Position numbers and translations under genes: made by a program | The notes under the pieces: model-generated | What the model was told of the DNA's origin: nothing | The model's input: only the letters and a program-made list of their open reading frames with translations | Databases searched by the model: none | In this document: positions 10,701-64,000 of the stretch, one piece after another | How positions within the stretch are numbered: the stretch's first letter is position 1 | Layout: each line of letters begins with the position of its first letter | Source of the DNA: the human T2T-CHM13v2.0 reference genome, Homo sapiens | Assembly: GCF_009914755.1 (NCBI RefSeq) | Contig: NC_060947.1 | Strand: one strand, 5' to 3' | Length of the DNA stretch: 64,000 bases

Positions 10701-13700
10701 CTCCGTGAAGAATTTGATCAAGGTCTGGATGTAGTGCTGGATGACAATCAGAATGTGCATGATGTGGCTGCACTCCTCAAGGAGTTTTTCCGTGACATGA
10801 AGGATTCTCTGCTGCCAGATGATCTGTACATGTCATTCCTCCTGACAGCAAGTGAGTCTTCTGACCTCCCTAGTAGGGCAAGGAAAGGAAATATTACTGG
10901 GGTCTAGGGGGTTCTAGGGACAGAGCTCAGGCTGGAGGACTTTGAAGAACTAAGGCAAAATGACCATAAGAAGATTTTAAAAACCTCTCCAGAATATATA
11001 CAATTATTATTTGTCAATTAAAAATAAAATTTTAATAAAAAACTTATTTGGGTTACTTTCTTTGTATTTCTAAATGTTCCATTATAAGTCTGTTGCTTGG
11101 AAATTTCTCTAGAGCTTCTTGAAGATGTGTGTGCCCTCTCAGGTCAAAAAAAAAAAAAACCACCCAGGTTCTGTAGAGGAGGTCTGGTTTTTATGGGGGC
11201 ACTTCTTGCTTTCAGAGTTCCTGAGCTCAAATGCTTTGGAAATGAGCAAAGGCAAGATGCCTGGGTACTTTCTCCATAACTGCCAGCAAGTTTCAAGCAG
11301 AATCTCACCTCCCTTGGTATCAGTCTGCAGCCAAGACTATCCCCCTGAGACAGCCCCTGTTTTCCTTCTTCTAGCTTTAAAGCCCCAGGATCAGCTTTCT
11401 GCCCTGCAGTTGCTGGTCTACCTGATGCCACCCTGCCACAGTGATACCCTGGAGCGTCTGCTGAAGGCCCTGCATAAAATCACTGAGAACTGCGAGGACT
11501 CAATTGGCATTGATGGACAGTTGGTAAAAAGATCTTGGAAAGAGTAGTGAAAACTGTAGTAGGGGACATATGTGGGAGTATATCAGCAAGAGGGTGGATG
11601 GAGAGGAGAGAGAGAAACAAGAATAAAAAGAGACATATTCATTTGTACAACTCCCAGTACTACCTCAGCGTCAATCACTTTCTGCTTTCCTTTGCCTAGG
11701 TCCCAGGCAACCGTATGACTTCCACTAACTTGGCCTTGGTGTTTGGATCTGCTCTCCTGAAAAAAGGAAAGTTTGGCAAGAGAGAGTCCAGGAAAACAAA
11801 GCTGGGGATTGATCACTATGTTGCTTCTGTCAATGTGGTCCGTGCCATGATTGATAACTGGGATGTCCTCTTCCAGGTAGGTGCAAGTTTTGGATGCACT
11901 TGTTTTACACATCCATCTCCTGTTCACAAGGCAAGGCACAGTTGTACCTGCATCTTTGAGGGTAGCCAAAACAGGCAGCCACAAGATCGTCCAGTCTAGA
12001 AATTCCTCCCACATTAGCTGGCCCTGGTACCTTTAGTCCTAGGTACCTGAAAGAGATGAGTATAAATGAAAAGGTGCTGTGTAATGATGGCTAATGTTGC
12101 TAATTCTACCCTCAGGTGCCTCCCCATATTCAGAGGCAGGTTGCTAAGCGCGTGTGGAAGTCCAGCCCGGAAGCACTTGATTTTATCAGACGCAGGAACT
12201 TGAGGAAGATCCAGTGAGTGTTTTTTGGGTTTGTTTATGCTTAGCCTGAAGTACCTCCTCCTATGGGGTTTTCCAACTCCAGACTATCTTTATATTAAGT
12301 AACGCAAGTACACAAACTGACTTTTTCAAAATCCTTCCCATTCAGGAGTGCACGCATAAAGATGGAAGAGGATGCACTACTTTCTGATCCAGTGGAAACC
12401 TCTGCTGAAGCCCGGGCTGCTGTCCTTGCTCAAAGCAAGCCTTCTGATGAAGGTCAGTTCCCTGCTGGAGGTCAGGCCCTTGCTGAAGGTCAGTCCCTTG
12501 TTGAAGGTCAGGCCCTTTTTGAAGGCCAGGTCGTTGCTGAAGATGAGCCCCTTGAGGAAGATGAGTCCTCTGAGGAAGATGAAGAGCTAGTATTTGAATA
12601 TCTTAATCAAGGAGTAGTCTTTGGGGAAGCTCAAGGTCTAGAAATCCCAAATAACTTTGAGATTCAGGGCCCACATCTTGAAGGAATACCAGAGCTTGAT
12701 GAGGAAGATGATGATGATGATAATGATACTTTAAATTTTGATGATCTTCCTCCCCTTGGAGATATTCTAGAACCAGATAATGAAATTCCAGAACTCATTG
12801 AGATCCCAGACTTTGAAGAAATTCCATATTTTGATATGGTCCCAGACCTTGAAGGAGCCCCAGATGTGCAAGAAATCCTGAACCCTGGAGAAAACTCAAA
12901 CCATGACCTAGAAGAAGGAGCAGATTTTGAAGACCACCAAAATCTTAACCTTGCAGAAGCTCCCTATCTTGATGTAATCCCAAACAATGAAATCCCAGAC
13001 CACGCAGATCCTTCAGATAATGATGAAATCCAAGATTCTGAAGAAGATCCCAGTCTTGAAGATGTCCCAGCTGTTGATGAAGTTCCAAATGATGAAGCCT
13101 CAAATACTGAAGAAATCCCAGACTATGAAGCCCCAGAGGTAAATGGGATTTCAGACTCTGAGGAAGACCTTGATTTTGAAGAAGTCTCAGCTCTTTATGT
13201 GGTTCCAAGCCCTGAAGAAGCCCCTGGTGGACATGAAATCCCAAATCATGAAGAATCTCCAGAGGTTAGTGGACTCTCAGACCCTGAAGAAGATCCCAGT
13301 CTTGAAGAGGTCTCAGATTTTGATGGAATCCCAAAATGATGAGGAAGCCTCAGACACTGAAGAAATTCCAGACCATGAAGAAGCTCCAGAGACCAATGGA
13401 ATTGCAGGCCCTGAAGAGGTCCCAGCTCTCCATGTAGTCACAGGCCCTGAAAATGTCTCTGATTTTGATGAAATGCAAGACCATGAAGAATCCTCAGATG
13501 TGAGTGGAGTCCCAAACACCGAAGAAGCCTCAGATATTGAAGAAATTCCGGGACGTGAAGAAGCCTCTGATGTTAGTGGAAACCAAGACTCTGAAGAAAG
13601 CCCTAGTCTTGAAGAAGATTCAGTTCTCTATGTGGCTCCAAAACCTAAGGATGCCCAGATTTACAACAAAGTTCAAGATTATCAGAAAGACCAAGCCAGT

Positions 13701-14572
13701 GCATTTGAAGAAGAAGAAGTTACCACTATGGCTCCAGAAACTGATGATGTCTCCATTCTCAATACAATTCCAGACCCTCCACAAGACCTGGCTGTCAATC
13801 TTGAAGAAGTCATGGATGTGGAAGAAGTCCCAATGCCTAAAGATTTAAACTCTAAAGAGGTTCAGAATCCAAAGGCAATTCAGTTTCATAAAGATGCAGA
13901 TGTTGCATTCCCTGTAGATACCACTCTCCTTAAAAACAAGTCTCAGCCTGGCCAAGTCATGGACTACAAGTCCTCACCAGAGGTGTTGAAGGGCAACACC
14001 TGCTTTCTGTCTTCCATGCAGTGCTGTAAGCTTTCAGCTCTAGCTTTGTTACTCATTTGCTTGGTAAAATTAGTCAGGTTACTTGTAGGGTGGTGGTGGT
14101 TATTAGGAGGTCGCCCTCTTACCTGTCTCCCTGGTGGTATTGTCCATTCCCTCTGAGCGCAGGGTATCTGTCTTACTCTTTCTCTTTCCTAACTCAGCTC
14201 TTTTCCCAGTTCCCACAGTGGTCCTAGATTCAGAGATCTGTGTTCTGCTGTCAGGCTGTAGTATTCTTATATGTCAAATGGGGATAATCATCCCTGTCCT
14301 ACCTTCTTGCCTCATACTGTATTTGAAACTCAAAATTAGGTCTTAGTGCCTTGGGTGCTGCGCAAAGTATAAAGTCTAGAAACATAAGGAGTTAACATTG
14401 TTACTATTTTTCAGGTTCCTCTGAGGAGCCAGCTGTGCCTTCCGGCACTGCCCGTTCCCATGACGATGAGGAAGGAGCGGGTAACCCTCCCATTCCGGAG
14501 CAAGACCGCCCATTGCTCCGTGTGCCCCGGGAGAAGGAGGCCAAAACTGGCGTCAGCTACTTCTTTCCTTAG
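7453..14572 (+). CDS. ARHGAP36: ARHGAP36 spliced CDS, 547 aa: join(7453..7705,8952..9017,9521..9756,10002..10194,10413..10468,10701..10851,11375..11523,11700..11876,12116..12213,12346..12452,14415..14572)
   Basis: All introns are GT-AG with compatible phases; exon lengths sum to 1644 nt. Translation [19 protein letters not shown]...RhoGAP-like domain...[10 protein letters not shown] is recognised as ARHGAP36. Confidence 0.97.
7570..8870. promoter_or_regulatory. CpG island / probable internal alternative promoter of ARHGAP36
   Basis: Dense CpG and high GC (e.g. gcggtgcgggcgcgggggcggcggc, GC boxes) against an AT-rich background; strong donor GGG|GTAAGC at 8296. Confidence 0.8.
8952..9017 (+). 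CDS. ARHGAP36: ARHGAP36 coding exon 2 ([22 protein letters not shown])
   Basis: Acceptor tctttctgtag; donor G|GTGAGG; phase 1-1. Confidence 0.93.
9521..9756 (+). CDS. ARHGAP36: ARHGAP36 coding exon 3, arginine-rich region
   Basis: Acceptor ctccccag; encodes AVSHKTFG...[15 protein letters not shown]...FTRRGRR; donor CGA|GTGAGT. Confidence 0.95.
10002..10194 (+). CDS. ARHGAP36: ARHGAP36 coding exon 4 (GAVSVDS...IEKH)
   Basis: Acceptor tttctccacag; start of RhoGAP fold [16 protein letters not shown]; donor G|GTAAGG. Confidence 0.95.
10413..10468 (+). CDS. ARHGAP36: ARHGAP36 coding exon 5 ([19 protein letters not shown])
   Basis: Acceptor ctttcag; donor CAG|GTAAAT; GIFT motif where RhoGAPs have GIFR. 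Confidence 0.95.
10701..10851 (+). CDS. ARHGAP36: ARHGAP36 coding exon 6 (LREEFD...[15 protein letters not shown]...)
   Basis: Typical RhoGAP [12 protein letters not shown] motif; AG/GT boundaries. Confidence 0.95.
11375..11523 (+). CDS. ARHGAP36: ARHGAP36 coding exon 7 ([20 protein letters not shown]...DGQL)
   Basis: Acceptor cttctag; donor TTG|GTAAAA; RhoGAP helices. Confidence 0.94.
11700..11876 (+). CDS. ARHGAP36: ARHGAP36 coding exon 8 ([16 protein letters not shown]...WDVLFQ)
   Basis: RhoGAP NxMxxxNLAxVFG motif; donor CAG|GTAGGT. Confidence 0.95.
12116..12213 (+). CDS. ARHGAP36: ARHGAP36 coding exon 9 (VPPHIQRQ...NLRKI)
   Basis: Acceptor ccctcag; donor CA|GTGAGT (phase 2). Confidence 0.93.
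12346..12452 (+). CDS. ARHGAP36: ARHGAP36 coding exon 10, penultimate ([13 protein letters not shown]...KPSDE)
   Basis: Acceptor ccattcag; donor AAG|GTCAGT at 12453 (phase 1). Confidence 0.93.
12453..13339 (+). CDS. ARHGAP36: Putative in-frame read-through or retained-intron extension of ARHGAP36 encoding an acidic repeat tail (790-aa isoform)
   Basis: No stop for 884 nt past the donor; D/E/P-rich protein-like repeats. Expression cannot be shown from sequence. Confidence 0.5.
13337..14156 (+). pseudogene. Frameshifted continuation of the acidic repeat ORF (+1 frame)
   Basis: Same repeat units ([14 protein letters not shown]) continue in the +1 frame right after CCAAAATGA. Confidence 0.6.
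14415..14572 (+). CDS. ARHGAP36: ARHGAP36 last coding exon (GSSEEPAVP...SYFFP*)
   Basis: Acceptor tttttcag; TAG at 14570-14572. Confidence 0.94.
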
Positions 14573-15670
14573 ATGTTTTTCCTTCTATAAGGTGCCAGAC
14601 AGGGGAAAAGGGTGGGGGTACATCTGGGATGTCACAGGAAACATTAAGGAGAGAGTTGAAGGTAAAGATCTGAAGGTAAGAAGGAGTTCCACCTGATGCT
14701 CGGGTCAGGATGAGAATTCCAAACACACTGCCAGCCCCTTCACTGGGGATGCTTGGTCTCTTCTGCTGGTAAAAGCAGAGATGTTTCTGTGTCATGCCCA
14801 AGCTCCCCGGTGCTACCTTGCCTTTCTCTTTTACCCCTGATCTTGGCTTTCTCTCTCTCTCTGCAGACTTTCCTTTAATTGATGTGACATTTGTGGTAAA
14901 CACCTTTCCCAGGGAACCTCACAAATCTTGAGATGCTTTCCCTTCCCCAAATGGGATTGCATGATTTCCCTGACTTTCCTACCCTCCTCCAGAGAGCTCA
15001 GTTGGAAAGGCCCTCAAGAGGCATGCTAGAACGTTAGGTCAGCCTACTGACAGCTGACAAACAATTAATGCGAAATCATGTCACACCAACCCATAGCCGT
15101 GTCCACGCAGCAACTCCACCACCTTAGGATTTCCCCCTCCAAATTATTCAGACCAATGGCTTGCCAAATGGCCTCTCCCAAAATTCTGTACAGTTTTGCT
15201 CAGGTCACGCCAACAGGGAAACCTCAAGTGTAGGTCTAATTAGTGTTTCTGGGATCCAAAGTTAGAGGAAAATTTAGATTTTATTGCCTGGATCTGCTTT
15301 AAAGACAATTGGTGTTTACACCCTCTTGTCAGCAAAACAGCTAGTTAGGTAAGGACATATAGTTCCAAGTAGGTAAAGTCACTTGATTACAAATGTTCTT
15401 AACTATCGTCTCTGTAATTCCTTTATACAGGACAGTACAAAATTGTGGGACATGCTCTGGTAACACACAGATATGGGTTGCATATGATCCAGAATTACAG
15501 CTGATATTATGGATGACAACTGCTAAGGTCCATAAAATGAAGACTGTATTGTATTGAGGGATAGAAATTGATCATTTAATGGGTAACAACTGCTGAGCTC
15601 AAAGATTTGTGATTGTTAAAACTTCTCTGGCATTTAATCATTAATAAACATCTGTATTGTGACAGCAGCA
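14573..15670 (+). other. ARHGAP36: ARHGAP36 3' UTR (end approximate)
   Basis: Unique sequence from the stop codon to just past AATAAA at 15643. Confidence 0.75.
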
Positions 15671-49233: not shown

Positions 49234-53056
<3,823 letters not shown>

Positions 53057-53119
53057 GATGATGTTAGTTGGTTATTTTGCTCGTTAGTTGATGCAGTTTC
53101 TTCCTAGTCTCGATGGTCT

Positions 53120-54140
53120 TTACATTTTGGCATGATTTTGCCGCAGCTGGTACCGGTTGTTCCTTTCCATGTTTAGTGCTTCCTTCAGGAGCTCTTTTAG
53201 GGCAGGCCTGGTGGTGACAAAATCTCTCAGCATTTGCTTGTCTGTAAAGTATTTTATTTCTCCTTCACTTATGAAGCTTAGTTTGGCTGGATATGAAATT
53301 CTGGGTTGAAAATTCTTTTCTTTAAGAATGTTGAATATTGGCCCCCACTCTCTTCTGGCTTGTAGAGTTTCTGCCGAGAGATCTGCTGTTAGTCTGATGG
53401 GCTTCCCTTTGAGGGTAACCCGACCTTTCCCTCCGGCTGCCCTTAACATTTTTTCCTTCATTTCAACTTTGGTGAATCTGACAATTATGTGTCTTGGAGT
53501 TGCTCTTCTCAAGGAGGATCTTTGTTGTGTTCTCTGTATTTCCTGAATCTGACCGTTGGCCTGCCTTGCTAGATTGGGGAAGTTCTCCTGGATAATATCC
53601 TGCAGAGTGTTTTCCAACTTGGTTCCATTCTCCCCGTCACTTTCAGGTACACCAATCAGACGTAGATTTGGTCTTTTCACATAGTCCCATATTTCTTGGA
53701 GGCTTCGCTCGTTTCTTTTTATTCTTTTTTCTCTAAACTTCCCTTCTCGCTTCATTTCATTCATTTCATCTTCCATCGCTGATACCCTTTCTTCCAGTTG
53801 ATCGCATCGGCTCCTGAGGCTTCTGCATTCTTCACGTAGTTCTTGAGCCTTGGTTTTCAGCTCCATCAGCTCCTTTAAGCACTTCTCTCTATTGGTTATT
53901 CTAGTTGTACATTCTTCTAAATTTTTTTCAAAGTTTTCAACTTCTTTGCCTTTGGTTTGAATGTCCTCCCGTAGCTCGGAGTAATTTGATCGTCTGAAGC
54001 CTTCTTCTCTCAGCTCGTCAAAGTCATTCTCCGTCCAGCTTTGTTCTGTTGCTGGTGAGGAACTGCGTTCCTTTGGAGGAGGAGAGGTGCTCTGCTTTTT
54101 AGAGTTTCCAGTTTTTCTAGAGTTTCTGTTTTTTCCCCAT
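53120..54140 (-). pseudogene. L1 ORF1p, frameshifted near its start
   Basis: ATG GGG AAA AAA CAG AAA CTC TAG; span is 1021 nt = 1017+4; C-terminal 248 aa still open. Confidence 0.9.
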
Positions 54141-56494
54141 CTTAGTGGTTTTATCTACTTTTGGTCTTTGATGATGGTGATGTACAGATGGGTTTTTGGT
54201 GTGGATGTCCTTTCCGTTTGTTAGTTTTCCTTCTAACAGACAGGACCCTCAGCTGCAGGTCTGTTGGAGTACCCGGCCTTGTGAGGTGTCAGTCTGCCGC
54301 TGCTGGGGGGTGCCTCCCAGTTAGGCTCCTCGGGGGTCAGGGGTCAGGGACCCACTTGAGGAGGCAGTCTGCCCGTTCTCAGATCTCCAGCTGCGTGCTG
54401 GGAGAACCACTGCTCTCTTCAAAGCTGTCAGACAGGGACATTTAAGTCTGCAGAGGTTACTGCTGTCTTTTTGTTTGTCTGTGCCCTGCCCCCAGAGGTG
54501 GAGCCTACAGAGGCAGGCAGGTCTCCTTGAGCTGTGGTGGGCCCCACCCAGTTCGAGCTTCCCAGCTGCTTTGTTTACCTAATCAAGCCTGGGCAATGTC
54601 GGGCGCCCCTCCCCCAGCCTCGCTGCCGCCTTGCAGTTTGATCTCAGACTGCTGTGCTAGCAATCAGTGAGACTCCGTGGGCGTAGGCCCCTCCGAGCCA
54701 GGTGTGGGATATAATCTCATGGTGCGCCGGTTTTTAAGCCCGTCGGAAAAGCGTATTCAGGTGGGAGTTACCCGATTTTCCAGGTGCCGTCTGTCACCTC
54801 TTTCTTTGACTAGGAAAGGGAACTCCCTGACCCCTTGCACTTCCCGAGTGAGGCAATGCCTCGCCCTGCTTCGGCTCGCACAGGGTGCACGCACCCACTG
54901 ACCTGCGCCCACTGTCTGGCACCCCCTATTGAGATGAACCCGGTACCTCAGATGGAAATGCAGAAATCACCCATCTTCTGCATGGCTCACGCTGGGAGCT
55001 GTAGACTGGAGCTCTTCCTATTCGGCCATCTGGGCTCCTCCCCCCTGCTTGATGTATTTTTACTAGTCTTTGGAGTCTTGCTTAACCCTTCTTTAAGAAT
55101 CATCTCACTAGATTCTTCCTGTGATATGACAGTTCATCACTGACTGTTGTCTTATATCTGAAAAGTTGCTTCATATGTTTCATCTAGTTTTCTAGTTTTT
55201 TATGGTGAGGGTACTAGACTTCTGCAGTTTACTCCTCACAGCTAGAATAGACATTACATTTTATTGTCTTTTTCCCATCTGTGTCTTTTAACAAGCAGAA
55301 ATATTTTTATTTTGATTAAGTCCAATGTGTCATTTTAGAAATGTTATTTTACTCTTTTTTTGTCTCTTCTCTGTATAATTTTTTCCTACTCAATGTTTAT
55401 GAAGTTCTTTTTCTGTGCTTTCTTCCATAAACTTTGTAGTCCTAGTTTTCCATATTTAGTTCTGTGCTCCATCTTGAATCAAGTTTTTTGGTGCGATATA
55501 GGGGTTATGGCTCATTTTTTTTCTATGTAGATTTCTGGCATCATTTGTTGAAATCTTTCTTTTCTGCATTGAGTTCCCTTTGTGCTATTTTGGAAAATGA
55601 GTTGCTTTTGTATATGCGGGTCTATTTATGTGCTTTCTATTCTGTTTTGTTAATACACTTGTTCATTCTTAGGCCTATACCATACTGTCTTATTTTCTGC
55701 AACTTTATGGTAAGACTTGAAATCTGGTAGGTTGAATCCTTCAACTTTGTTTCTTTATAAAAGTCTTTTTTGGCTATTTTAGTGTCTTTACTTTTCCATA
55801 TAAATTTTAAATCAGCTTATCACTCTCTTCAACAAAACCTGATGGGATTTTGATTGTAATTATATTATATCTTTAGATCAATTTGGAAAGAATTAAAATC
55901 TTAATATTGAGACATATAATCAATGGCAATTTTTTCCCATTTATTTTAATTGTCTTTAATTTCTTTCACCAATGTGTTGTAATTTTTAAGTGTAAAGATA
56001 TTGCATTTTTTAAATTAAACCTATTCCTAAGCATTTCATGATTTAAAAATCTCATTGTACATGGCATTTTTGATTCCCTTTTCTAATTTTTGGAAAAAAT
56101 TGTTTTATGGCCTATATATATAAATGTGATTAATTTTCATTTATTCATTTTATACCCTACTCCCTTATAAATTCAATTAGTAGTTCTAGGGTTTTTTGTT
56201 GTTTTTGTTGTTGTAGCTTTCTTTGTAGATTCCACAGGATTTTCTGTACATACAATTATCTCATCTATGAATAATGACAGTTTTACTATTTTTTCTCCAA
56301 TCTTTCAGATTTCTACTTTTTTTTGTGTTATTGAACCGGTTTGGACCTCCAGTACAATGTTGAATGTAAGTGATGAGAATTGATTTCATTGCTTTTCTCA
56401 CACTTAGTTAAGAAGGCAATGAAGATATCACCATTAACGTCATGTTAACTGTAGGTTTTTGGTAGACGCCCTTTATCACATTGAGTAAGTTCCT

Positions 56495-61862: not shown

Positions 61863-64000
61863 TAGGAATATATATATATATATATTTTAGGAATATATTT
61901 AGGAATGTATTTAGGAAATATTTAGGATACATTTAGAATATATTTACGAATATATTTAGGAATATATATATGGAATATATATATGGAATATATATATGGA
62001 ATATATATATGGAATATATATATGGAATATATATATGGAATATATATATGGAATATATATATGGAATATATATATGGAATATATATATGGAATATATATA
62101 TGGAATATATATATGGAATATATATATGGAATATATATATGGAATATATATATGGAATATATATATGGAATGTATACGGAATATATATATGGAATGTATA
62201 CGGAATATATATATGGAATGTATACGGAATATATATATGGAATGTATACGGAATATATATATGGAATGTATACGGAATATATATATGGAATGTATACGGA
62301 ATATATATATGGAATGTATACGGAATATATATATGGAATGTATACGGAATATATATATGGAATGTATACGGAATATATATATGGAATGTATACGGAATAT
62401 ATATATGGAATGTATACGGAATATATATATGGAATGTATACGGAATATATATGGAATGTATACGGAATATATATGGAATGTATACGGAATATATATGGAA
62501 TATATATATACGGAATATATATACGGAATATATATATACGGAATATATATACGGAATATATATATACGGAATATATATATATACGGAATATATATATACG
62601 GAATATATATATATGGAATATATATAGGGAATATATATATACGGAATATATATACGGAATATATATATACGGAATATATATATACGGAATATATATATAT
62701 ACGGAATATATATATATATACGGAATATATATATATACGGAGTCTATATATACGGAATATATATATATACCGAATCTATATATACGGAATATATATATAT
62801 ATACGGAATCTATATATACGGAATATATATATATACGGAATCTATATATACGGAATCTACATATACGGAATATATATATCTACGGAATCTATATATACGG
62901 GATATATGTATCTACGGAATATATATATACGGGATATATGTATCTACGGAATATATATATACGGGATATATGTATCTACGGAATATATATATACGGGATA
63001 TATGTATCTACGGAATATATATATACGGGATATATGTATCTACGGAATATATATATACGGGATATATGTATCTACGGAATATATATATACGGGATATATG
63101 TATCTACGGAATATATATATACGGAATATATATATACGGAATATATATACGGAATATATATATACGGAATATATATATAAGGAATATATATATACGGAAT
63201 ATATATATACGGAATATATATACACGGAATATATATATACGGAATATATATATACGGAATACATATATACGGAATATATATGCGGAATATATATATACGG
63301 TACATATATATGGAATATATACATACGGAATATATATATGGAATATATACATACGGAATATATATATGAAATATATACATACGGTACATATATATGGAAT
63401 ATATACATACGGAATATATATATGGAATATATACATACGGAATATATATATGGAATATATATGATATACATGGAATATATATATGATATATATGGAACAT
63501 ATATGATATATATGGAATATATATGATATATGGAACATATATGATATATATGGAATATATATGATATATATGGAATATATATGATATCTATGGAATATAT
63601 ATGATATATATAGAATATATGTGGAATATATATGATATATATAGAATATATGTGGAATATATATGATATATATAGAATATATATGATATATATATGGAAT
63701 ATATATATGATATATACATGGAATATATATGATATACACATGGAATATATATATGATATATACATGGAATATATATGATATATATATGGAATATATATGA
63801 TATATATGGAATATATATCTGGAATATAAATGATATATATGGAATATATATGGAATATATATGGAATATATATCATATATATGGAATATATATGGAATAT
63901 ATATGGAATATATATCATATATATGGAATATATATGATATATATGGAATATATATGGAATATATATCATATATATGGAATATATATGATATATATGGAAT
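61863..64000. repeat. TA-rich minisatellite (GGAATATATATAT core, 13/24/32/~20-bp unit blocks), runs off the window end
   Basis: Tandem units seen directly. Confidence 0.97.

What the first reader, a model, noticed from the sequence alone, without database searches (positions are those of the whole stretch)
12453..14156. Hidden giant acidic exon (exitron-like) inside the last intron of ARHGAP36
Seen: the reading frame of the penultimate exon runs on without a stop for 884 nt into the 'intron'. It encodes a D/E/P-rich protein-like repeat ([31 protein letters not shown]), and the same style continues to ~13980 in the +1 frame. It does not resemble any SINE, LINE or LTR, and GAA/GAT codons are confined to one frame, as in coding DNA. 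Read-through gives a 790-aa protein that replaces the canonical 52-aa tail with a ~295-aa polyacidic disordered tail. Established: a stop codon in a retained last intron leaves no downstream exon junction, so EJC-dependent NMD is not expected. Inference: this is an alternative ARHGAP36 isoform whose polyanionic tail could bind the very basic N-terminal region ([15 protein letters not shown]...RRGRRGAV) and tune membrane targeting or PKA inhibition. I cannot tell whether predicted isoforms already include it.
Basis: partly seen in the sequence, partly recalled or inferred. Interest (0 to 1): 0.9.

Follow-up and report, generated by a model that had tools for sequence, protein, structure and literature searches.

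The report
Frameshifted ancestral acidic exon in ARHGAP36
The coding-looking stretch in the last intron of human ARHGAP36 is the remnant of a very long acidic exon that many other mammals are predicted to translate, but in this human sequence one extra base breaks its reading frame.

Summary
The exon-11 frame stays open for 884 nt past the splice donor, to a TGA at 13337-13339. A second frame is open from 13143 to 14156. None of 1000 dinucleotide shuffles gave an open frame this long.

The two frames are one ancestral reading frame, split by a single extra A in the run 13333-13336. With X at the break, the human translation aligns colinearly with predicted 888-1103-aa ARHGAP36 proteins of dog, fox, camel, whale, cattle, deer, oryx, sheep, bat and elephant.

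In those models exon 11 runs about 524 codons further. It then either splices at a GTAAG donor (human 14025|14026, same phase as the canonical donor) to the last exon, or reads on into a conserved hydrophobic 43-aa tail. Mouse, rat and other roughly 590-aa forms keep a ~57-aa cassette from the same stretch (human 12846-13033).

So this is real coding sequence by descent. It is already present in predicted proteins of other species, and I found no paper on it. The human full-length form is disabled. Two distal products that bypass the break remain possible in human. I could test neither expression nor how widespread the break is among humans and other primates.

The parts
12346..12452 (+). Annotated ARHGAP36 exon 11. 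It ends in phase 1 (last base G of a split codon) at donor A, AAG|GTCAGT.
   Evidence: Gene table given with the finding. Translation. Donor matches 8 of 9 positions of MAG|GTRAGT (consensus recalled). Mean pairwise identity across 13 mammals is 0.92.
12448..12554 (+). 18-nt tandem repeat (5.9 copies) encoding E-G-Q-x-L-x units. It carries in-phase copies of the donor at 12488|12489 (AAG|GTCAGT) and 12506|12507 (AAG|GTCAGG).
12453..13336 (+). Proximal part of the ancestral exon-11 extension, read in the exon-11 frame. 295 codons, D+E 33%, P 10.5%, net charge -96, including a poly-Asp run at 12697-12727.
   Evidence: Aligns colinearly with long ARHGAP36 models. Kogia protein residues 411-760 map here at 82% identity.
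12846..13033 (+). Ortholog of the ~57-aa cassette (DPEGAPDV...EIP|G) carried by the ~590-aa ARHGAP36 forms of mouse, rat, beaver, ground squirrel and elephant. The acceptor ...ggtcccAG|AC is at 12844-12845. No good in-phase donor exists in human.
   Evidence: tblastn of those proteins on the window and sequences. Acceptor context and phase-1 GT/GC list, best 5 of 9. Human lacks 7-21 residues where the cassette ends in other species.
13333..13339 (+). The break. The A-run 13333-13336 holds one base more than the ancestral frame allows, and is followed at once by TGA 13337-13339 (then TGA 13340-13342).
   Evidence: Orthologs read ..G(V/I)P(N/S)DEE.. through this point; human reads ..GIPK* and then, one base on, DEEASD... 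Repeat spacings crossing this point are all = 1 mod 3. Internal paralogous unit CCAAATGATGAAGCC at 13084.
13338..14025 (+). Distal part of the ancestral extension, read in the second frame. 229 codons, D+E 25%, net charge -45. The acidic repeats fade into non-repetitive sequence.
   Evidence: Kogia residues 747-997 map to 13296-14030 at 67%. Homologs at 59-71% identity.
13918..14025 (+). 108-nt block that forms a cassette exon in the grey seal 586-aa model ([12 protein letters not shown]...SMKCC|SSEEP). In human it is bounded by ...ccctgtAG| (13916-13917) and donor B, with phase 1 at both ends, and it lies downstream of the break.
   Evidence: Its use in human is a prediction and was not shown.
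14023..14031 (+). Donor B, GCT|GTAAGC (exon end 14025). Phase 1, the same phase as donor A, so it is compatible with the last exon.
   Evidence: 5 of 9 consensus positions. Joining base 14025 to the last exon gives [11 protein letters not shown]... Models ending ..SMK(C/F)[11 protein letters not shown]: Kogia, camel, Myotis, fox, oryx, argali.
14026..14156 (+). Read-through past donor B: a hydrophobic, slightly basic tail (43 aa counted from the codon at 14025, net +4, best Kyte-Doolittle 19-residue window 2.54), then stop 14154-14156.
   Evidence: The same tail and same stop position occur in the dog and cattle models and in two ORFs from unnamed contigs, P0005 and P0008. Identity 83-85% across the three pairs of human, dog and cattle.
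14415..14572 (+). Coding part of the annotated last exon (52 aa including the split codon).
   Evidence: Gene table.

Best explanation
Positions 12453-14025 are the human copy of an old alternative extension of ARHGAP36 exon 11. Positions 14026-14156 are its read-through tail.

In the placental ancestor, and still in many living mammals, the transcript has three choices:
(a) Splice at donor A (12452), giving the short protein.
(b) Run on for about 524 codons of acidic, proline-rich 6-aa and 12-aa repeats, then splice at donor B (14025) to the last exon. This gives a protein of about 1050 aa with a polyanionic disordered insert.
(c) Ignore donor B and end in a 43-aa hydrophobic tail.
Some lineages also use internal AG sites to cut short cassettes out of the same stretch. 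Rodents use one corresponding to human 12846-13033, and grey seal uses 13918-14025.

In this human assembly one extra A in the run 13333-13336 shifts the frame and gives TGA at 13337. The full long isoforms can therefore no longer be made.
- Use of donor B would leave the stop 689 nt upstream of a junction, so nonsense-mediated decay is expected (established >50-55 nt rule).

Shown here: the frames, the single break, the orthology, the compatible splice phases and the single-copy status.

Inferred: that the long form is really expressed in other mammals; that the break is fixed in humans; and that the acidic insert (net charge about -140) acts as a disordered electrostatic module in the C-terminal regulatory domain, with the tail acting as a membrane anchor.
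For: 1. One break only. Stop counts per frame switch at 13337. All repeat spacings that cross it are = 1 mod 3, and all other spacings shown are = 0.

2. Orthology.
- All 14 hits of the 'longer' search with the distal half carry a RhoGAP domain. Ten are named ARHGAP36 or Rho GTPase-activating protein 36; four are 'hypothetical' or 'Rho-GAP domain-containing' entries.
- They come from dog, fox, camel, Kogia, cattle (2), Myotis, elephant, sheep, deer, oryx, naked mole-rat, marmot and tamarin.
- The proximal half found the same set plus cat and Chinese hamster.
- The human translation with X at the break aligns colinearly. Orthologs read VPN-DEE where human reads IPK|DEE.

3. Independent raw ORFs. 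Two ORFs from unnamed contigs (P0006, 281 aa; P0007, 266 aa) read through the break point in one frame.

4. Splice logic. Donor B is in phase 1, like donor A. Joining it to the last exon gives [11 protein letters not shown], as in 6 aligned models.

5. Tail. It ends at the same stop position in human, dog, cattle, P0005 and P0008, with 83-85% identity, against 0.66-0.78 for the acidic segments.

6. Both forms in one taxon or in close relatives: elephant 902 and 590 aa, dog 1001 and dingo 602 aa, naked mole-rat 770 and 596 aa, Chinese hamster 996 and 585-600 aa.

7. The region is unique in the genome. The Kogia long protein maps exon by exon to this locus only, and the other hits match its GAP-domain region alone.

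8. No RefSeq transcript in the supplied table covers the region, and no human or ape protein containing it was returned.
Against: - All long forms are automated gene models or raw ORFs. I saw no transcript or peptide evidence for any species.
- Some models look patched (tamarin, naked mole-rat, dingo). Several lineages show their own truncations or shifts: cat stops at ..ALHML; elephant and tamarin end in another frame; P0006, P0009 and P0063 shift. Constraint is therefore uneven, and the distal part may be dispensable.
- Differences between internal repeat copies show only a weak codon-position signal: 95, 75 and 104 differences at positions 1, 2 and 3, out of 308, 308 and 306 sites.
- The human branch is not faster than others. 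Human-elephant identity is 75%, against 73% for Kogia-elephant and 76% for camel-elephant. Downstream of the break it is 69%, against 66-69%. There is no sign of long decay.
- One lesion fits anything from about 0.2 to 50-70 My of neutral drift under assumed rates. 'Disabled' therefore rests on a single base in a single haplotype.
- Two routes that bypass the break are intact in human (acceptor 13916-13917 to donor B, or to the tail). Part of the region may still be in use.
Confidence: 0.75

Rival explanations
1. Human cells retain the last intron in some tissue and make a working 790-aa ARHGAP36 with a 295-aa polyacidic tail.
For: - The frame is open for 295 codons.
- Full retention leaves no downstream junction, so nonsense-mediated decay is not expected (established rule).
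- The part upstream of the break is the better conserved: 78-81% against 69-72% to elephant, Kogia and camel.
- A cat model also ends early inside the acidic region, at 718 aa, so truncated acidic tails may be tolerated.
Against: - Donor A is strong (8 of 9 consensus positions).
- No transcript in the supplied RefSeq table covers the region.
- No human or ape protein containing it was returned.
- The stop is created by the frameshift itself, not by a conserved terminator.
- The product lacks both conserved C-termini.
- There is no AATAAA or ATTAAA in the intron.
Confidence: 0.12
2. Only the distal end is still used in human. Splicing from donor A to the AG at 13916-13917 would bypass the break. 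It would add an in-frame 36-aa cassette (13918-14025), giving 583 aa. If donor B is ignored, it would end in the hydrophobic tail, giving 574 aa. This reading is compatible with the best explanation.
For: - Both ends of the 108-nt block are in phase 1 and carry AG and GT.
- The grey seal isoform X1 (586 aa) has exactly this cassette, 75% identical to the human translation.
- The human tail is 83-85% identical to dog and cattle and ends at the same stop.
Against: - It is not in the supplied RefSeq table.
- Donor B matches only 5 of 9 consensus positions.
- The cassette is no better conserved than the rest, at 0.67.
- Tail conservation rests on 3 pairs, and could reflect intronic splicing elements such as the G-rich run GGTGGTGGTGG.
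- Only one model cluster with this cassette was seen.
Confidence: 0.2
3. The extra A is private to this haplotype, or an assembly error, and most humans encode an intact 1071-aa isoform.
For: - It is a single base in a 4-A run.
- The rest of the 524 codons carry no stop.
- The human branch shows no excess divergence.
Against: - No intact human long protein was returned by the searches.
- No such transcript is in the RefSeq table.
- The only primate model seen (tamarin, 660 aa) is fragmentary and ends out of frame.
- A short A-run is an unlikely error site in a finished assembly (my judgement).
Confidence: 0.04
4. A non-coding 18-nt minisatellite that happens to lack stops.
For: The unit length is a multiple of 3, so a stop-free unit propagates an open frame.
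Against: - None of 1000 shuffles reached the observed length.
- The open frame continues through about 300 nt of non-repetitive sequence to 14156.
- Spacings such as 33, 51, 87 and 105 are multiples of 3 but not of 18.
- The translation, not just the DNA, is kept in at least 15 mammalian protein models and in ORFs from unnamed contigs.
Confidence: 0.01

Closest known systems
Predicted long ARHGAP36 proteins of other mammals (for example Kogia breviceps isoform X1, 1047 aa; cattle UniRef entry, 1103 aa; dog, 1001 aa; Oryx dammah X2, 1098 aa)
   Same: Orthologous and colinear with human 12453-14025 or 14156. They share the junction with exon 11, the repeat architecture, donor B and the hydrophobic tail.
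   Different: Their frame is continuous, whereas human has one extra base and a stop. They are automated predictions, and I found no paper describing them.
Mouse Arhgap36 isoform 1 (590 aa) and other ~590-aa forms
   Same: They contain a ~57-aa acidic cassette between ..FDE and GSSEEP.. that maps to human 12846-13033 in the exon-11 frame.
   Different: Human canonical mRNA skips it. Human lacks residues where the cassette ends and has no good in-phase donor. That 'isoform 1' without an X marks a curated record is a naming convention I recall; I did not check it.
RPGR exon ORF15
   Same: It is an X-linked gene in which an alternative exon made of exon 15 plus part of intron 15 encodes a long, repetitive acidic (Glu-Gly) domain followed by a short basic C-terminal domain, and in which frameshifts are the usual lesion (passage of PMC4890669). 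It works like the ancestral ARHGAP36 extension: exon plus intron, an acidic low-complexity region, then a short basic tail.
   Different: There is no sequence relationship. The composition differs (D/E/P hexapeptides here, Glu-Gly there). ORF15 is expressed and essential in the human retina, whereas the ARHGAP36 extension is broken in this human sequence.
Exitrons (Marquez et al. 2015)
   Same: An intron with exon-like, protein-coding features whose removal or retention changes the protein. Some exitrons derive from ancestral coding exons (abstract of PMC4484396).
   Different: Exitrons lie inside an annotated coding exon. Here the segment lies between two annotated exons, retention meets a stop, and the ancestral event is a choice between two 5' splice sites 1573 nt apart.

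Membership tests
Ortholog of the long ARHGAP36 exon-11 extension | Colinear protein-level homology to the extension of other mammals, at the same gene position | tested here: met
   62-77% identity to the 7 models compared (elephant, Kogia, camel, cattle, dog, Myotis, marmot) over 388-519 aligned residues.
Ortholog of the long ARHGAP36 exon-11 extension | Uninterrupted reading frame from exon 11 to donor B or to the tail stop | tested here: not met
   One frameshift at 13333-13336 and TGA at 13337.
Ortholog of the long ARHGAP36 exon-11 extension | Second donor in the phase of the last exon | tested here: met
   GCT|GTAAGC at 14025|14026, phase 1. Joined translation gives [11 protein letters not shown].
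Ortholog of the long ARHGAP36 exon-11 extension | Transcription and translation of the extension | not testable with these tools
   No RNA or peptide data were available. The RefSeq table lists no such human transcript.
Exitron | Both splice sites lie inside an annotated protein-coding exon | tested here: not met
   The intron 12453-14414 lies between annotated exons 11 and 12 (gene table). In the ancestral tail form the acceptor would lie after the stop.
Exitron | Retention keeps the frame open (internal insertion, no premature stop) | tested here: not met
   Stop at 13337 in human and at 14154 in the ancestral frame. The length of 1962 nt is a multiple of 3, but that does not matter here.
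Dispersed repeat (SINE, LINE, LTR) | Multiple copies in the genome | tested here: not met
   Only the self-match was found in the 3.1-Gb assembly. The region is not in NCBI's list of masked stretches given with the finding.
Known protein domain or RNA family | Match to Pfam or Rfam | tested here: not met
   No Pfam family at E<=1 for either half. Only RhoGAP was found in the 3 long orthologs scanned, dog, Kogia and cattle. No Rfam match.
Disabled (pseudo-)exon fixed in the species | The lesion is shared by other humans or primates | not testable with these tools
   No other human or primate DNA was reachable. The tamarin model is fragmentary.

The most novel reading that the evidence does not exclude
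Most placental mammals make an unstudied ARHGAP36 isoform of about 1050 aa. Its C-terminal regulatory domain carries a ~520-aa polyanionic disordered insert (net charge about -140), ending either in the usual last exon or in a conserved hydrophobic membrane tail. The insert tunes the Arg-rich PKA-inhibiting and membrane-targeting N-terminus.

The human lineage has cut this module down. The rodent-type cassette is lost, the giant exon is frameshifted, and only a distal cassette or a tail-anchored form is possibly retained. If so, human ARHGAP36 would differ from that of the mouse, dog, cat and cattle used as models.
Probability: 0.2. Interest if true: 0.7.

Novelty: new member of a known kind. 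Interest (0 to 1): 0.45.

Why it matters
ARHGAP36 inhibits and depletes the catalytic subunit of PKA and activates Gli. Its C-terminal domain is described as regulatory and without homology to other proteins (passages of PMC8128262; PMC5059767). It is also the gene behind sex-linked orange coat colour in cats (10.1101/2024.11.21.624608).

The isoform descriptions I saw in those papers concern N-terminal variants only. If the predicted models are right, the C-terminal domain varies by more than 500 residues between and within species, and human, mouse and carnivore proteins are not equivalent there. That bears on cross-species experiments.

It also offers a clean case of a lineage-specific loss of an alternative exon. 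For human biology alone the finding is modest: the most likely state is a silent remnant.

Tried and rejected
- Pfam on both halves and on three long orthologs: nothing beyond RhoGAP.
- Rfam on 12000-14700: nothing.
- Profile search of 1.84 billion representative proteins with the distal-half alignment: 9 hits. Seven belong to this same mammalian stretch, and one of these, P0061, is identical to the human translation. Two are unrelated low-complexity matches, an Exo5 nuclease and a bacterial LRR protein. No older or wider family was found.
- Codon-position test on internal repeat copies: weak, so not used as evidence of constraint.
- Dating the break from the lesion count (substitution and indel rates assumed from memory): the interval of 0.2 to 50-70 My is too wide to be useful.
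- Ribosomal frameshifting at the break. The sequence C-CCA-AAA has the X-XXY-YYZ form (pattern recalled), but a -1 shift enters the frame with 66 stops. Rescue would need a +1 shift at AAA-UGA-U, for which I have no evidence. Rejected as unsupported.
- Cassette donor. I could not reconcile the ..EIP|G junction of the ~590-aa forms with the ..EIPD.. read-through of elephant and whale long models. Marmot and hamster read ..EIPGN.., which fits G|GTAAT. This needs their DNA.
- Literature. The searches were ARHGAP36+isoform (78 papers, top 20 seen as a listing), ARHGAP36+acidic (17), ARHGAP36+frameshift+primates (1, unrelated) and ARHGAP36+PhyloCSF (0). Two looser searches listed nothing containing ARHGAP36. 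None describes this exon. Supplements were not opened.
Disorder of the insert and the helical nature of the tail are therefore inferred from composition and hydropathy only.
- Complex prediction was not used. I make no binding claim.

Full report
**1. What is in the sequence**

The frame of annotated exon 11 (12346-12452) continues past the donor AAG|GTCAGT with no stop until TGA at 13337-13339. That is 884 nt, or 295 codons counted from the split Gly codon. A second frame, one base further on, is open from 13143 to 14156.

Per-frame stop counts switch cleanly:
- The exon frame has 0 stops before 13337 and 27 after it.
- The second frame has 9 stops up to 13140, then none until 14154.
- The third frame has 66 stops.

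In 1000 dinucleotide-preserving shuffles of 12453-14156 the longest open frame averaged 116 aa, with a maximum of 281. The observed values are 337 and 294 aa. The few longer open frames elsewhere in the 64-kb window lie inside blocks that NCBI masks as repeats (list given with the finding).

Codon-position composition is strongly periodic. The DNA is a degenerate 18/36-nt repeat and is single-copy in the 3.1-Gb assembly.

**2. The two frames are one frame with one extra base**

Every repeat-copy spacing shown is a multiple of 3. The exceptions are the spacings that cross about 13330 (19, 37, 91, 109, 235, 289, 307), and these are all = 1 mod 3.

The local sequence is ..ATC CCA AAA TGA TGA GGA... 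An internal paralogous unit at 13084 reads CCA AAT GAT GAA GCC. The run of four A at 13333-13336 therefore holds one base too many, and the two TGA triplets are the out-of-frame reading of ..GAT GAG..

**3. Orthologs**

- *Distal half, near-length search.* Translated 13338-14153 found 7 proteins of similar length at 59-69% identity. Six are ORFs from unnamed contigs, and one is a partial gray whale ARHGAP36.
- *Distal half, longer proteins.* This search found 14 proteins, all with a RhoGAP domain. Ten are named ARHGAP36 or Rho GTPase-activating protein 36, and four are 'hypothetical' or 'Rho-GAP domain-containing' entries. They are dog 1001 aa, camel 978, Kogia 1047, cattle 1103 and 972, Myotis brandtii 936, fox 888, elephant 902, sheep 1038, deer 1039, oryx 1098, naked mole-rat 770, marmot 932 and tamarin 660.
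- *Proximal half.* This found the same set plus cat (718 aa) and Chinese hamster (996 aa), and many forms of about 590 aa.
- *Alignment.* With X at the break, the human translation aligns colinearly with these models from exon 11 to the end. At the break orthologs read ..G(V/I)PN-DEE.. where human reads ..GIPK|DEE...
- *Raw ORFs.* P0006 and P0007 run through that point in a single frame.
- *Mapping back.* The Kogia protein maps to the human locus exon by exon. Residues 411-760 match 12341-13336 at 82%, residues 747-997 match 13296-14030 at 67%, and the end matches the last exon. Elsewhere in the genome only its GAP-domain region matches.

**4. How the extension ends**

The models end in one of two ways.
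- *Splicing to the last exon.* Six aligned models read ..SMK(C/F)[11 protein letters not shown].. (Kogia, camel, Myotis, fox, oryx, argali). In human the matching point is GCT|GTAAGC at 14025|14026, in phase 1 like the canonical donor. Joining it to the last exon gives [11 protein letters not shown]...
- *Reading on into a tail.* The dog and cattle models instead read on into ..[31 protein letters not shown]....PGG.... and stop. Human, P0005 and P0008 stop at the same position.

The 43-aa tail is hydrophobic (best 19-residue Kyte-Doolittle window 2.54) and slightly basic (net +4). It is 83-85% identical among human, dog and cattle. The acidic segments score 0.66-0.78 and exon 11 scores 0.92.

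Without the extra base the human lengths would be 1071 aa for the spliced form and 1062 aa for the tail form, within the range of the models. This is arithmetic.

**5. Shorter cassettes cut from the same stretch**

The ~590-aa proteins of mouse (named 'isoform 1'), rat, beaver, ground squirrel and elephant carry about 57 acidic residues between ..FDE and GSSEEP... These map to human 12846-13033 in the exon-11 frame, behind the acceptor ..ggtcccAG|. Much of the length difference between the human 547-aa protein and the mouse 590-aa protein lies here.

Human lacks 7-21 residues where that cassette ends, and has no in-phase donor better than 5 of 9 consensus positions. I could not settle the donor in other species without their DNA. 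Marmot and hamster read ..EIPGN.., which fits G|GTAAT, whereas elephant and whale long models read ..EIPD...

The grey seal isoform X1 (586 aa) carries a different cassette, DTTLLKNKS...SMKCC. In human this is 13918-14025: 108 nt, with AG before it and donor B after it, and phase 1 at both ends. This block and the tail lie downstream of the break, so they would still be readable in human if the AG at 13916-13917 were used. That is a prediction only.

**6. Nature of the encoded segment**

| Segment | Codons | D+E | K+R | Pro | Net charge |
|---|---|---|---|---|---|
| Proximal (12452-13336) | 295 | 33% | 0.3% | 10.5% | -96 |
| Distal (13338-14024) | 229 | 25% | 5.7% | 8.7% | -45 |

There are 22 [ST]xx[DE] sites in all. 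Neither half matches a Pfam family. A profile search of 1.84 billion representative proteins found nothing beyond this same mammalian stretch. The segment looks like a fast-evolving disordered polyanion. Lineage-specific repeat gain occurs in marmot (poly-Asp) and hamster (a tandem unit of about 17 aa), along with in-frame unit loss in other lineages.

Identity of 62-77% between human and the seven models compared is above what I would expect for unconstrained sequence at that distance. That expectation is recalled, not computed. The codon-position signal among internal repeat copies is weak.

**7. State in human**

The full long forms cannot be made from this sequence.
- Full retention would give the 790-aa truncation.
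- Use of donor B would put the stop 689 nt upstream of a junction.
- There is no AATAAA or ATTAAA in the intron.
- No transcript in the supplied RefSeq table covers the region, and no human or ape protein containing it was returned. Database make-up may contribute to that absence.

On the other hand the human branch shows no extra divergence, and one lesion is compatible with anything from well under 1 My to tens of My of drift (assumed rates). I cannot say whether the break is old, recent or even polymorphic. The only primate model seen (tamarin) is fragmentary and ends out of frame.

**8. Mechanism, with what is shown and what is inferred**

*Shown:* one ancestral frame; a single break; two donors in the same phase, 1573 nt apart; a conserved hydrophobic terminus; cassettes in other species.

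*Inferred:*
- In mammals with an intact frame, the choice among donor A, donor B, no splicing and internal acceptors sets the length of an acidic disordered insert in the C-terminal domain.
- That domain is reported to counteract an N-terminal autoinhibitory motif and to affect localisation (passages of PMC8128262).
- The Arg-rich N-terminal motif docks into the acidic cleft of the PKA catalytic subunit (passages of PMC5059767). A tethered polyanion could therefore compete with that contact or with membrane binding, and the tail could anchor the protein. None of this was tested.

**9. Comparison with known cases**

The nearest relatives by descent are the predicted long ARHGAP36 proteins themselves.

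The nearest analogue by mechanism is RPGR exon ORF15. It is made of exon 15 plus part of intron 15 and encodes a long acidic repetitive domain followed by a short basic domain (passage of PMC4890669).

The stretch does not meet the definition of an exitron (abstract of PMC4484396).

**10. Verdict**

This is a real and well-supported remnant of coding sequence. It is interesting mainly for what it says about ARHGAP36 in other mammals and about lineage-specific loss. For human it is most likely silent. The long form already exists in public protein predictions, and I found no paper on it.

Noticed in passing
window 12448-12560: The canonical donor AAG|GTCAGT recurs 36 and 54 nt downstream (12488|12489 and 12506|12507) inside an 18-nt repeat, always in phase 1. 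Use of either would add 12 or 18 residues in frame.
   Followed up: partly
window 13138, 13264, 13499 and the ..CCCAG|AC units: The repeat units themselves carry splice-like motifs. The E-V-x-G unit reads GAG|GTAAAT, GAG|GTTAGT or GAT|GTGAGT (7 of 9 consensus positions, phase 0), and I-P-D reads TCCCAG|AC. This may explain why gene models of different species cut different cassettes from the stretch.
   Followed up: partly
window 13330-13340: The break reads C-CCA-AAA-TGA-T. It has the form of a slippery heptamer followed by a stop (pattern recalled). A -1 shift would enter the frame with 66 stops, and only a +1 shift would rejoin the distal frame. There is no evidence for recoding.
   Followed up: partly
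P0026 (Chinese hamster, 996 aa), P0023 (marmot, 932 aa): The hamster model replaces most of the distal extension with many tandem copies of a unit of about 17 aa (..SNDEPQDSEKVFNLEKIPSGDEV..). Marmot has a greatly expanded Asp/Asn/Gly run. The stretch is prone to repeat expansion.
   Followed up: no
P0006, P0009, P0063, P0017, P0024, P0025: Other lineages show their own early ends or frame changes. Two related ORFs from unnamed contigs end ..HLLSS(C/H)HEVL at the TAA inside the donor-B motif. One bat-like ORF shifts after ..EENSIFEED. The elephant and tamarin models end in ..SPPQ(SH/RC), another frame of the human ..KSSPE.. codons. The cat model ends at ..ALHML.
   Followed up: partly
window 61865-64000: An AT-rich satellite with GGAAT-containing units of 11-32 nt and more than 130 copies produces stop-free frames of 280-529 aa on both strands. 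These are open frames with no coding meaning.
   Followed up: partly
window 49650-54154, minus strand: Open frames of 624, 379 and 344 aa lie inside the 5.4-kb block that NCBI masks as a repeat (49505-54924). They were not identified further.
   Followed up: no
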